Positions 10,601-13,600 of a stretch of DNA of 64,000 bases are shown here, piece by piece; within the stretch, counting starts at the first letter, position 1; each line of letters begins with the position of its first letter. This stretch comes from Escherichia coli. GTDB lineage: Bacteria > Pseudomonadota > Gammaproteobacteria > Enterobacterales > Enterobacteriaceae. The stretch lies in assembly GCF_017348835.2 (NCBI RefSeq), contig NZ_CP071375.1; one strand, written 5' to 3'. Position numbers: made by a program.

Positions 10601-13600
10601 GACAAGTCAGAAAAAATGCTCGGTTATGATGTGACCTATAAGATTGGCGATCAGCAGGGCAAAATCCGCATGGACCGCGATCCGGGTACGCAGATCCCGC
10701 TAGATAGTAACGGGCAACTGATTTTGAATAACAAAGTATAACAAGGCTGTACTCTGCAATTTGGCCCCTCATTCGCTCAGGCTGAGGGGCTTTTTTTGCG
10801 ACTTATTTCACCAGTTCGGGCCATAAACGCAAAGTCGTTCCGGCAATCTGCATCAGTTTTTCCAGCGATGCACCTTCGCGTGCGCTGATCGACATCCCCT
10901 GAATAATACAATTAAGGAATTCTGCCAGATGTGTCACGTCACAGTGGGTCGGGATTTCCCCGCGCGCTTGTCGTTGACATAAAAACTGCTGCAAAGTGCG
11001 CTCTTGCATCGCATGGCGTGATTTCAACGTATTGGCGATATCTCCTGAATCTGGGGAGAGGGTGGTGCAGTTGTTGATCATGAAGCAGCCTGCCGGGGTG
11101 TCTTTGCTGGTAAAGCAGTTGGCGATGGCAGCAAAATAGTCAGCCAGCGCAGACTCCACGCTTTTCTCTTCACAAAACAGCTGTGCTTCATGCTTAGCGG
11201 CAAAACGATCGATATAGCGGTCGAGAACGGCACGAAATAACCCCTCTTTGTTGGTAAATTCCGCGTATAGCGTGGGCGCTTTGGCTCCGGTCGCTTCGAC
11301 GAGGTCCGCAAGAGAAGTCGCTTCATAACCGTGTTGCCAGAACAATTTCATGGCCTTATCAAGCGCGGCATCCCTGTCGAACACTTTTGGGCGGCCACGG
11401 CTTTTTTTTACACATTGTGTTGAGTCAGTTGCCATGATGCCGTTGTACCTGGTGACTGTGAATGAAAGGTTATTATAAAAATAATCACCTCCGTTCACCA
11501 GTCCAGATCCCATAAAAATAATTGCTTTCTATTTAACTGAAATTTAAAGATTTTTAAATTAATTAATGATTGTTATAAAAATATCTTGTATGTGATCCAG
11601 ATCACATCTATCATTTAGTTATCGATCGTTAAGTAATTGCTTGCGACGTCATTCATCTGCATAAGGCCACTATTATGAAAAACGTAAAAACCCTCATCGC
11701 TGCGGCGATTTTAAGCTCCATGTCATTTGCCAGCTTTGCGGCTGTCGAAGTTCAGTCAACGCCAGAAGGCCAACAAAAAGTCGGTACAATCAGTGCTAAC
11801 GCGGGGACAAATCTGGGATCGCTGGAAGAGCAGCTGGCGCAAAAAGCGGATGAGATGGGCGCAAAATCTTTCCGTATTACTTCTGTAACCGGTCCGAATA
11901 CCCTCCATGGAACAGCAGTAATTTATAAATAAGCATTAACCCTCATTAATGCCTGCTACTGCTGATTTTTTCCCCGCGACATGCCGTGTCGCGGGGATTT
12001 TTTTTATCCAGGATTTACAGAGTTTGTGGGCTCACTTGATGACGGCGGACATCCACCGGCATCCCGGAACGGACATCCATCACATGTTGCATCACTTCAG
12101 CGTCAGTTTGTGCTGCATCTTTAAATGATTGCATTGCGCTATTCAGCGTAATTGGCAGCAACTGCGGATCGTCATCAATCTTCTCTGACAGCGGCTGATG
12201 TACTTCAACCAGACGTGCACCGTTTGGTTCGGCAGAGACTTTTTTCGGAGTGTTGATGATATTTACTTTGGTGCCTGGGGTGACCTGGCTAAAGAGTGTT
12301 TTGATATCGTCATCCCGCAGACGAATACAGCCAGAACTTACCCGCATGCCAATGCCGAAATCGGCGTTCGTACCGTGAAGCAAATAAACGCCACTATAGG
12401 CCGCCAGACGAATCGCATGATGGCCCATTGGGTTATCCGGTCCAGCCGGCACTACCGCAGGCAACTCAATTCCCTGTGCTTTATAACGGGCGCGGATGTT
12501 TGCCGTTGGCGTCCAGGTTGGGTTTGCACGTTTGTCTGAAACGGTGGTCACCATTGTCGGTGTCAGCGTGTCACCACCTAACTGACCAATACCTATTGGA
12601 TACACGGTTACCGAATTTTTACCCGGCGGGTAGTAATAGAGACGCAGCTCCGCAATGTTGATCACAATGCCTTCGCGCGGCGCGTCTGGAAGTAGGGTTT
12701 GCAACGGGATCGTTAACACGCTGCCCGCGCGCGGTACGTAAGGATCAACGCCGGGGTTAGCCTGTAACAGAGCGAGAAAGCCGACGTTATATTTTTTGGC
12801 GATGGCTTCCAGAGAACCACCGTCATTTTCCACCACATGAAATTTGTTTTCGCCAACCAGACGACTGCCCGCTGGCGGCAGCGGCCAGGTGTTGGCTTTT
12901 GCCGGTAGCGCCAGCGCCACGGCAGCGGCGAACGTAAAAAACGTTAGCCAGCGAGAAAAACGCGTTTTGATCATCACCAAAAATCCATAATAAATATAAG
13001 GTTATTGTAATAAACAGATAAGCCTGAATTATGGATGGTGACAGTGTCGGATAGTGCAGGGAAGTGCAAAGAATTTGTAAATGTTGCAGATGGGGGCGCA
13101 GAAACGCCCCCGATTTACCATTAAGCGATCGCGTTTTCTTCCAGTTCACGCATAAACTGGCGTACCCATTCGATACGCGTTTTCCGCTCACTCAAATCCT
13201 GAATAAATTTCAGGCGCGTCGGACCATCAAGGCGGTAATGCTGCGGCTGTTTTTGCAGCAAACCAATCAACCAGGCCGGATTAACGTGATTCTTCTCGGC
13301 AAATTCGATCACCCCGCCTTTCTCATTACCTTCCAGCTTCCTGATCCCCAGTTTCTGCGCTTGCTGGCGTAGACGGGCAATATCCAGCAGGGTACGCGCC
13401 GGATCCGGCAGCAGGCCGAAGCGATCGATAAGCTCGACTTTGATCTCTTCCAGTTCGTTTTCCGTTTTGGCGCTGGCAATACGTTTATAGAACGACAAAC
13501 GCGTGTTCACGTCAGGAATGAAATCATCTGGCAATAGCGACGGCATCCGCAGCTCGACTTCTGTTTGCTGGCTGGTGAGATCTTCCAGCGACGGCTCGCG

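What the first reader, a model, noticed from the sequence alone, without database searches (positions are those of the whole stretch)
11591..11606. Perfect CRP-consensus palindrome in the comR-bhsA divergent promoter region
TGTGATCCAGATCACA matches the CRP core TGTGA-N6-TCACA exactly and sits between a TetR-family repressor gene and the stress gene bhsA. It could equally be the ComR operator, since TetR-family operators are also palindromic.
Basis: partly seen in the sequence, partly recalled or inferred. Interest (0 to 1): 0.25.

Follow-up and report, generated by a model that had tools for sequence, protein, structure and literature searches.

The report
Known CRP repressor site in bhsA promoter
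The palindrome is a real, near-consensus binding site for the global sugar-sensing regulator CRP, lying between the -35 and -10 elements of the E. coli bhsA stress-gene promoter, where it turns the gene down; this is already in the literature and the regulatory databases, so it is ordinary.

Summary
TGTGATCCAGATCACA is at 11591-11606 and is the only TGTGA-N6-TCACA in the window (0.05 expected). The locus is the E. coli comR-bhsA intergenic region.

It is a CRP site, and a known one:
- It scores 21.5 of 22.05 bits on a matrix built from 106 other ChIP-seq CRP sites, higher than all of them.
- Published CRP ChIP-seq in ETEC H10407 lists this 16-mer under a ycfQ/bhsA peak.
- EcoCyc/RegulonDB-derived tables list bhsA as CRP-repressed.
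- bhsA mRNA falls about 3.8-fold with added cAMP in a cyaA mutant.

Published 5' RNA-seq puts the bhsA start at window 11621. The site therefore spans -30 to -15 (centre -22.5), inside the spacer between the -35 and -10 elements. That position fits repression by occlusion, not class I/II activation. In the window plus 71 orthologous intergenic regions, GTGA and GATCACA are essentially invariant while the middle four bases vary, and the position is fixed.

The "could equally be ComR" hedge is not favoured. A better ComR operator candidate is a conserved 28-nt palindrome at 11612-11639, with an invariant core TATCGATCGTTAA. I could not read the primary ComR paper, so overlap with ComR binding is not excluded.

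Novelty: already known. Interest: low.

The parts
11591..11606 (.). CRP-binding site core, TGTGATCCAGATCACA. Extended 22-mer is 11588-11609, with 18 of 22 matches to AAATGTGATCTAGATCACATTT by my own count. Spans -30 to -15 of the bhsA promoter, centre -22.5.
   Evidence: unique exact match; 21.5 of 22.05 bits, above all 106 ChIP-seq training sites; CRP ChIP-seq peak in ETEC H10407 with this sequence as its reverse complement; half-sites conserved in the window plus 71 orthologous regions.
11586..11591 (+). bhsA -35-like hexamer TTGTAT, 17-nt spacer. The aligned hexamer is TTGACG in 59 and TTGACC in 4 of the 71 parsed regions. It abuts or overlaps the left CRP half-site.
   Evidence: Position relative to the mapped TSS.
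11609..11614 (+). bhsA -10 hexamer TATCAT (-12 to -7).
   Evidence: TATCAT or TATGAT in 61 of 71 parsed regions. The TSS lies 7 nt downstream.
11621..11621 (+). bhsA transcription start (A), equal to MG1655 1169019, 54 nt upstream of the ATG. In stationary phase about 80% of transcripts are UpA-primed and start one base earlier.
   Evidence: 5' RNA-seq supplementary tables of PMC4488433, with the promoter sequence -40..+4 printed.
11612..11639 (.). Candidate ComR operator O1: 28-nt imperfect palindrome CATTTAGTTATCGATCGTTAAGTAATTG, centre +5.5. Core TATCGATCGTTAA (11620-11632) is invariant. An inference, not shown to bind ComR.
   Evidence: 9-12 of 14 pairs complementary in 64 of 72 regions, against a background of 4.06 +/- 1.86; the only exact TTANCGATCGNTAA in the window; ComR site reported about 60 bp upstream of comC.
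11563..11576 (.). Second, degenerate copy of the same motif (O2): TTAATGATTGTTAT in E. coli, TTAACGATCGTTAT in other genera, at -58 to -45. An inference.
11594..11603 (.). Two Dam GATC sites inside the CRP site (11594-11597 and 11600-11603). The promoter-proximal one is invariant across genera.
   Evidence: One GATC in the bhsA upstream region shows growth-phase-dependent methylation, but which one could not be resolved.
11675..11932 (+). bhsA (ycfR/comC) coding sequence, the regulated gene.
10803..11435 (-). comR (ycfQ) coding sequence, the TetR-family copper-responsive repressor, 210 aa.
11472..11477 (-). Conserved TATAAT on the comR strand, the presumed comR proximal -10. Inferred only. The CRP site lies about 133 bp upstream of the start this would give.
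   Evidence: The block is retained in species that lost bhsA and the CRP site.

Best explanation
The palindrome is a high-affinity binding site for the cAMP receptor protein (CRP) inside the core of the sigma-70 bhsA promoter. It fills the spacer between the -35-like hexamer (11586-11591) and the -10 hexamer (11609-11614) and is centred at -22.5 relative to the mapped start at 11621. When cAMP is high, the CRP dimer occupies -33 to -12. It competes with RNA polymerase for the -35 element and spacer, and so lowers bhsA transcription (promoter occlusion). ComR, the copper-released TetR-family repressor encoded divergently, most likely acts through a separate conserved palindrome that overlaps the -10 and the start (11612-11639). 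bhsA would then be under two independent repressors: carbon status through CRP, and copper or stress through ComR. Shown by sequence or published data retrieved here: the sequence match, CRP occupancy in vivo, the start site, the direction of the cAMP response, and the conservation pattern. Inferred: occlusion as the mechanism, and the assignment of the downstream palindrome to ComR.
For: Sequence. The site is the only exact TGTGA-N6-TCACA in the window. It scores 21.53 of a possible 22.05 bits on a matrix built from 106 other ChIP-seq CRP sites. That exceeds every training site (their maximum is 20.18 and median 12.84), and the next best hit in the window scores 12.12.

Occupancy. Haycocks et al. 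2015 (PMC4287617), Table 1 of high-confidence CRP ChIP-seq peaks in ETEC H10407, lists peak 1274886 with site TGTGATCTGGATCACA, the reverse complement of this site, assigned to ycfQ/bhsA.

Geometry. 5' RNA-seq places the bhsA start at MG1655 1169019, which is window 11621, and prints the promoter sequence containing the whole palindrome at -30 to -15. The UpA-primed TTAT context agrees.

Direction. In BW25113 cyaA tolC, bhsA log2 expression falls steadily, 0, -0.24, -0.42, -0.96, -1.09, -1.66, -1.74, -1.94, as cAMP rises from 0 to 10 mM. Tables derived from EcoCyc/RegulonDB class bhsA in an incoherent type-2 loop, in which CRP acts as repressor, and as CRP-cAMP regulated.

Conservation. In the window plus 71 orthologous intergenic regions from Escherichia, Citrobacter, Salmonella, Enterobacter, Lelliottia, Kosakonia, Leclercia, Siccibacter, Buttiauxella and others, the best CRP-matrix hit is always at the same place, at least 13.96 bits and 74-84 bp from the ATG. 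GTGA and GATCACA are invariant or nearly so, while the four central bases carry 0.45-0.81 bits. The site is centred at -22.5 in 62 of the 71 regions that could be parsed and at -21.5 in 9, between TTGACG/TTGACC (63 of 71) and TATCAT/TATGAT (61 of 71).
Against: - No in vitro binding or footprint data could be read. The statement that CRP shifts the ycfR upstream region (attributed to Zhang et al. 2007) is second-hand, and the source is not held.
- The ChIP-seq is from ETEC H10407, not from this strain or K-12, and peak resolution does not prove that this 16-mer alone is responsible.
- The fall in bhsA with cAMP after 15 minutes could be partly indirect.
- Occlusion is inferred from position only; no in vitro transcription data were seen.
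- G10 and A11 of the 16-mer are invariant, whereas the symmetric positions 6 and 7 vary. CRP preference alone does not explain this, so another constraint or another protein may share the promoter-proximal half.
- The ComR operator has not been seen in a primary source, so overlap with ComR binding is not excluded.
Confidence: 0.85

Rival explanations
1. The palindrome is a dual-use site, bound by both CRP and ComR, either competitively or as part of an extended ComR-protected region.
For: TetR-family operators are palindromes, and half-sites 11 bp apart suit a helix-turn-helix dimer (general knowledge). The palindrome lies between two copies of the TTAnCGATCGnTAA-type motif, 56 bp apart. The invariance of G10/A11 is not explained by CRP. 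A review places the ComR site only roughly, '60 bp upstream'.
Against: The centre of the palindrome varies freely while ComR stays 68-97% identical across these species. A far better conserved operator-like palindrome exists at 11612-11639, and its left edge (62-63 bp from the ATG) fits the '60 bp' report better than the CRP site does (69-84 bp). The pentamers share no sequence with the TCGTTAA half-sites of that motif.
Confidence: 0.1
2. The palindrome is the ComR operator only, and the match to the CRP consensus is coincidental.
For: It is the most obvious palindrome in the intergenic region of a divergent TetR-type pair.
Against: CRP occupies it in vivo. It outscores all 106 bona fide CRP sites. 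bhsA responds to cAMP. Conservation follows the CRP contact pattern.
Confidence: 0.02
3. The site acts mainly on comR rather than bhsA: CRP represses or activates a comR promoter, and bhsA changes only indirectly through ComR levels.
For: The databases also annotate CRP as repressor of comR. On the comR strand a conserved TTTTTATAA(C/T) block about 146 bp upstream of the comR ATG could be a distal comR -10, which would put the CRP centre at about -33.5.
Against: If CRP lowered ComR, bhsA should rise with cAMP, but it falls. The conserved proximal comR TATAAT is about 133 bp from the site, and it survives in four species that lost bhsA, the CRP site and the operator motifs together, so comR expression does not need the site. 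No comR start was found in the 5' RNA-seq tables. This effect could coexist with direct bhsA repression.
Confidence: 0.15
4. CRP activates bhsA from this site, as in a classical class I or class II promoter.
For: Most strong CRP sites in intergenic regions are activating. notes modal positions of about -40.5 and about -92.5.
Against: The site is centred at -22.5 relative to the mapped start. bhsA falls with cAMP. No alternative start 41.5 or 61.5 bp downstream of the centre appears in the 5' RNA-seq entry, where 99.7% of the 5' ends in the scored window are at -1/+1.
Confidence: 0.02

Closest known systems
The documented CRP site at ycfQ(comR)/bhsA (Haycocks et al. 2015 ChIP-seq; CRP-bhsA and CRP-comR interactions in EcoCyc/RegulonDB)
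   Same: It is the same sequence at the same locus. The published site TGTGATCTGGATCACA is the reverse complement of window 11591-11606. The databases annotate repression.
   Different: Nothing in the site itself differs.
CRP-repressed promoters where the site overlaps the core promoter (for example cyaA P2; named from my own knowledge, not checked here)
   Same: A CRP dimer bound between -35 and +1 competes with RNA polymerase, and expression falls when cAMP rises.
   Different: Here the site lies almost exactly within the -35/-10 spacer and is near-consensus, stronger than most activating sites. The mechanism has not been shown biochemically for bhsA.
Class I / class II CRP-activated promoters (lac at -61.5, galP1 at -41.5; general knowledge)
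   Same: The same protein and the same 16-bp core motif.
   Different: The position (-22.5) is incompatible with the activating contacts to RNA polymerase, and the response to cAMP is negative.
Type I TetR-family repressor with a divergent target and an operator in the shared intergenic region (TetR/tetO, AcrR/acrAB; the classification is quoted)
   Same: comR and bhsA are divergent, and a palindromic operator is expected in the 239-bp spacer.
   Different: The element that best fits this role is the 28-nt palindrome at 11612-11639, not the CRP palindrome.

Membership tests
CRP (cAMP receptor protein) binding site | Match to the TGTGA-N6-TCACA core and to a matrix built from bona fide sites | tested here: met
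   Exact core. 21.53 of 22.05 bits on a matrix from 106 other ChIP-seq sites, above all of them.
CRP (cAMP receptor protein) binding site | Occupied by CRP in vivo | tested here: met
   From a published dataset retrieved here: a high-confidence CRP ChIP-seq peak in ETEC H10407 with this 16-mer, assigned to ycfQ/bhsA. Not from this strain.
CRP (cAMP receptor protein) binding site | Half-sites conserved and central spacer free across orthologous promoters | tested here: met
   Window plus 71 orthologous regions: GTGA and GATCACA invariant or nearly so, the central 4 nt at 0.45-0.81 bits, position fixed. One caveat: G10/A11 are also invariant, which is more than CRP requires.
CRP (cAMP receptor protein) binding site | Expression of the adjacent gene depends on cAMP-CRP | tested here: met
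   Published dose-response: bhsA falls steadily to log2 -1.94 at 10 mM cAMP in a cyaA tolC strain.
CRP (cAMP receptor protein) binding site | Direct binding by purified CRP-cAMP (EMSA or footprint) at this sequence | not testable with these tools
   Only a second-hand statement is available. The cited paper is not held.
Class I / class II CRP-activated promoter | Site centred near -41.5, -61.5, -71.5 or similar relative to the start, with a positive response to cAMP | tested here: not met
   Centre at -22.5 relative to the mapped start. The response to cAMP is negative.
ComR (TetR-family) operator | Palindrome in the intergenic region between the repressor gene and its divergent target | tested here: met
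   True of this palindrome, but also true of the better-conserved palindrome at 11612-11639, so this feature does not discriminate.
ComR (TetR-family) operator | ComR binding, released by copper, mapped to this sequence | not testable with these tools
   The primary paper is not held. A review says only that the site is '60 bp upstream' of comC. The ComR/YcfQ ChIP-exo peaks are not in the text held.
ComR (TetR-family) operator | Presence of the element tracks presence of comR across genomes | tested here: inconclusive
   Four species keep comR but have lost bhsA, the CRP palindrome and the TTAnCGATCGnTAA motifs together. Both elements therefore belong to the bhsA promoter, and the test does not separate them. 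The reverse case, bhsA without comR, was not obtained.
Dam-protected (undermethylated) GATC at a regulator binding site | A GATC within the site is incompletely or variably methylated in vivo | tested here: inconclusive
   One GATC in the bhsA upstream non-coding region changes methylation over time on both strands. Coordinates could not be mapped to one of the four intergenic GATCs.

The most novel reading that the evidence does not exclude
CRP and ComR may form one compact composite switch rather than two independent repressors. The CRP site lies midway between two copies of the putative ComR operator motif (centres at +5.5 and about -51.5, 56 bp apart), so the sharp bend that CRP puts into DNA could help or hinder a ComR-mediated loop. 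In addition, the two GATC sites in the CRP palindrome, one of them invariant across genera, could make occupancy sensitive to methylation and give cell-to-cell differences in bhsA expression. None of this has been tested. It rests on geometry, on the unexplained invariance of the promoter-proximal GATC, and on one unresolved report of variable GATC methylation upstream of bhsA.
Probability: 0.08. Interest if true: 0.45.

Novelty: already known. Interest (0 to 1): 0.1.

Why it matters
It matters little as a discovery. The CRP-bhsA interaction is in EcoCyc/RegulonDB and in a published ChIP-seq table, and the bhsA start site is a model for primer-dependent initiation.

What this check gives is a clean and coherent picture. 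One of the strongest CRP sites in E. coli is a repressing site inside a promoter spacer, and that arrangement is conserved across Enterobacteriaceae. It links a multi-stress, biofilm and copper-permeability gene to carbon status.

The one loose end that is useful is where ComR binds. The conserved 28-nt palindrome at -9 to +19 is a specific, testable candidate.

Tried and rejected
- Primary papers: Zhang et al. 2007, Deng et al. 2011 and Mermod et al. 2012 are not held. The reported CRP gel shift and the ComR binding fragment are therefore known only second-hand.
- ComR/YcfQ ChIP-exo: Gao et al. 2021 is mentioned in text, but peak positions are not in the held text or supplement.
- Which GATC varies: I tried to identify the GATC with growth-phase-dependent methylation (ZK126 positions 1072523/4) by calibrating against MG1655 and W3110 through a yccS site. 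No offset fits exactly (nearest differences are 10-17 bp), so this is unresolved.
- comR start site: not listed in the 5' RNA-seq tables.
- Generic promoter scan: one search found only TTCACC-17-AATAAT at 11494-11522, the same bhsA-side prediction that Shimada et al. list. It missed the experimentally mapped promoter, so I did not use it.
- Rfam scan of 11400-12100: nothing at gathering score.
- The repeat finder: it did not list the 8+2+8 palindrome itself. I verified it directly from the sequence.
- Readings considered and rejected: class I/II activation (wrong position and wrong sign), a chance palindrome (ChIP-seq, conservation), and a ComR-only operator (ChIP-seq, cAMP response).
- Not attempted: bhsA orthologues that lack comR.

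Full report
**Observation.** The sequence TGTGATCCAGATCACA is at window 11591-11606. It is the only exact TGTGA-N6-TCACA on either strand of the 64 kb window. Dinucleotide-preserving shuffles give 0.05 matches on average, and 5 of 100 shuffles contain one. The 16-mer is not strictly self-complementary: it is ATGTGATC-CA-GATCACAT, 8-nt arms around a 2-nt centre, at 11590-11607. The locus is the E. coli comR-bhsA divergent pair, with comR at 10803-11435 on the minus strand and bhsA at 11675-11932 on the plus strand, separated by 239 bp. A 381-bp query spanning this intergenic region (11380-11760) matches 5424 of 5426 complete E. coli genomes and is 100% identical to an O157:H7 strain. K-12 MG1655 carries the identical 16-mer at 1168989-1169004.

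**It is a CRP site, and a known one.** I built a position matrix from the 106 other 16-mers in Table 1 of Haycocks et al. 2015, leaving this site out. The site scores 21.53 of a possible 22.05 bits. That is above every one of the 106 (their maximum is 20.18 and median 12.84), and far above the next hit in the window at 12.12 bits, which is the known ptsG site and was itself in the training set. The same table of high-confidence CRP ChIP-seq peaks in ETEC H10407 lists peak 1274886 with site TGTGATCTGGATCACA, assigned to ycfQ/bhsA. That sequence is the reverse complement of this site. Tables drawn from EcoCyc and RegulonDB list bhsA as CRP-cAMP regulated. They also place it in an incoherent type-2 feed-forward loop with ComR, a class in which CRP acts as repressor. 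One paper states that CRP shifts the ycfR upstream region in a gel assay. I could not check this at source.

**Where it sits in the promoter.** The 5' RNA-seq tables of Druzhinin et al. 2015 give the bhsA promoter from -40 to +4 as atatcttgtatgtgatccagatcacatctatcatttagttAtcg. The start is at MG1655 1169019, 54 nt upstream of the gene, with hundreds to thousands of reads at +1 and -1. That start is window 11621. The TTAT context agrees with the UpA-primed initiation for which bhsA is a model promoter.
- The -10 hexamer TATCAT is at 11609-11614.
- The -35-like hexamer TTGTAT is at 11586-11591.
- The CRP 16-mer spans -30 to -15, centred at -22.5.

The site therefore fills the spacer of the core promoter. 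No class I or class II activating geometry is possible from there. A bound CRP dimer should exclude RNA polymerase.

**Direction of the effect.** In a BW25113 cyaA tolC strain given 0-10 mM cAMP for 15 minutes, bhsA log2 expression was 0, -0.24, -0.42, -0.96, -1.09, -1.66, -1.74 and -1.94. This is a steady fall of about 3.8-fold, as expected for repression.

**Comparative evidence.** A search with ComR returned 80 loci from Enterobacteriaceae. In 71 of them bhsA is divergent and adjacent, with an intergenic region of 238-269 bp. I analysed these together with the window's own region, 72 in all.
- In all 72 regions the best CRP-matrix hit is at the same place, 74-84 bp from the ATG, scoring at least 13.96 bits.
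- Column by column, GTGA (11592-11595) and GATCACA (11600-11606) are invariant or nearly so. The first T varies, and the four central bases carry only 0.45-0.81 bits. This is the pattern expected for CRP, which reads the pentamers and tolerates the centre.
- The promoter elements are conserved around the site. Of the 71 regions that could be parsed, 59 have TTGACG and 4 have TTGACC immediately 5' of the site, and 61 have TATCAT or TATGAT 3' of it. The site is centred at -22.5 in 62 and at -21.5 in 9.
- One feature is not explained by CRP. G10 and A11 of the 16-mer are invariant, whereas the symmetric positions 6 and 7 vary. As a result the promoter-proximal GATC is universal.

**The ComR alternative.** The most conserved element of the whole intergenic region is not the CRP site. 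It is TATCGATCGTTAA (11620-11632), invariant in all 72 regions. This is the core of a 28-nt imperfect palindrome, CATTTAGTTATCGATCGTTAAGTAATTG (11612-11639), 82% complementary and centred at +5.5. The symmetry holds across genera: 9-12 of 14 position pairs are complementary in 64 of 72 regions. The background over all 28-mers in these regions is 4.06 +/- 1.86, and only 0.28% reach 11.

TTANCGATCGNTAA occurs exactly once in the window. A second, looser copy lies upstream: TTAACGATCGTTAT in other genera and TTAATGATTGTTAT in E. coli, at 11563-11576. The size, the symmetry and the overlap with the -10 and the start are what one expects of a TetR-family operator. Its left edge is 62-63 bp from the bhsA ATG, close to the '60 bp upstream' that a review attributes to Mermod et al. 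2012. The CRP palindrome lies 69-84 bp upstream. I therefore assign ComR to this element, with moderate confidence and as an inference only.

Four species retain comR next to ldtC but have lost bhsA, the CRP site and these motifs together. This shows that all of these elements belong to the bhsA promoter, but it does not separate CRP from ComR.

**comR itself.** A conserved TATAAT on the comR strand (11472-11477) probably serves comR. The CRP site is about 133 bp upstream of the start this would give, so a direct classical effect is unlikely. A second TTTTTATAA(C/T) block about 146 bp upstream of the comR ATG, followed by the upstream operator-like motif, could be a distal comR promoter. That would put CRP at about -33.5. 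This would fit the database annotation of CRP repressing comR and the ComR autorepression seen in a CRISPRi promoter screen. It conflicts with the reported absence of autoregulation. No comR start was found in the data I could reach.

**Dam sites.** The palindrome contains two GATC sites, and the operator core contains a third. One GATC in the bhsA upstream non-coding region changes methylation on both strands during long-term stationary phase. I could not map the ZK126 coordinates to a specific GATC.

**Verdict.** The main interpretation is right. The site is a documented CRP site that represses bhsA from within the promoter spacer. The ComR operator is most likely the neighbouring palindrome. 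Novelty: already known. Interest: low.

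Noticed in passing
window 11612-11639 (core 11620-11632): 28-nt imperfect palindrome centred on CGATCG, overlapping the bhsA -10 and start. 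The 13-nt core TATCGATCGTTAA is invariant in 72/72 regions (window plus 71 orthologues). It is the best candidate for the ComR operator, and I found no paper that states its sequence.
   Followed up: partly
window 11563-11576, and the comR strand at about 11472-11477 and 11572-11577: A second copy of the operator-like motif lies upstream of the CRP site. On the comR strand there are two copies of TTTTTATAA(T/C)G(A/G)T(C/T)(G/A)TT(A/C)A, about 46 and about 146 bp upstream of the comR ATG. These may be two comR promoters, each followed by an operator-like sequence. That would fit the reported ComR autorepression and conflict with the earlier 'no autoregulation' report.
   Followed up: partly
window 11600-11601 within the CRP site: G10 and A11 of the 16-mer are invariant in 71/71 parsed regions, while the symmetric positions 6 and 7 vary. 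The promoter-proximal GATC is therefore universal and the distal one is limited to Escherichia. CRP preference does not explain this.
   Followed up: partly
window 11594-11597, 11600-11603, 11624-11627 (MG1655 1168992, 1168998, 1169022): One GATC in the bhsA upstream non-coding region shows growth-phase-dependent methylation on both strands in a published SMRT study (q = 0.05-0.07). I could not determine which of the GATCs it is.
   Followed up: partly
L058, L061, L072, L073 (Enterobacter sp. ENT03, Enterobacter sp. Bisph1, Pseudescherichia vulneris, Escherichia sp. ESNIH1): comR is retained directly next to ldtC, but bhsA and its whole promoter (CRP site and operator motifs) are deleted. What ComR regulates in these species is unknown.
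   Followed up: no
window 11621 (bhsA +1) and 11619-11622 TTAT: bhsA is a published model promoter for primer-dependent (UpA nanoRNA-primed) initiation in stationary phase. The start region lies inside the invariant operator-like core.
   Followed up: yes
window 11586-11591 compared with the orthologues: Escherichia species have a degenerate -35 (CTTGTA/TTGTAT) where almost all other genera have TTGACG. This suggests a weaker basal bhsA promoter in Escherichia.
   Followed up: no
window 296-311: CGTGATAGCCGTCAAA is the known ptsG CRP site, the reverse complement of the ptsG entry in the ChIP-seq table. It was in my matrix training set, so its 12.1-bit score is not independent.
   Followed up: partly
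window 11653-11660 and about 11530-11547: Further conserved blocks with no assigned function: TCATCTGC in the bhsA 5' UTR just upstream of the ribosome-binding site, and TAT..taTGAAa..TAa in the middle of the intergenic region.
   Followed up: no
window 11577-11581; MG1655 1169303-1169402: The window has a run of 5 A where MG1655 has 6, giving an intergenic region of 239 rather than 240 bp. MG1655 annotates a small RNA, bhsB, overlapping the 3' end of bhsA; Rfam gave no hit in 11400-12100.
   Followed up: no
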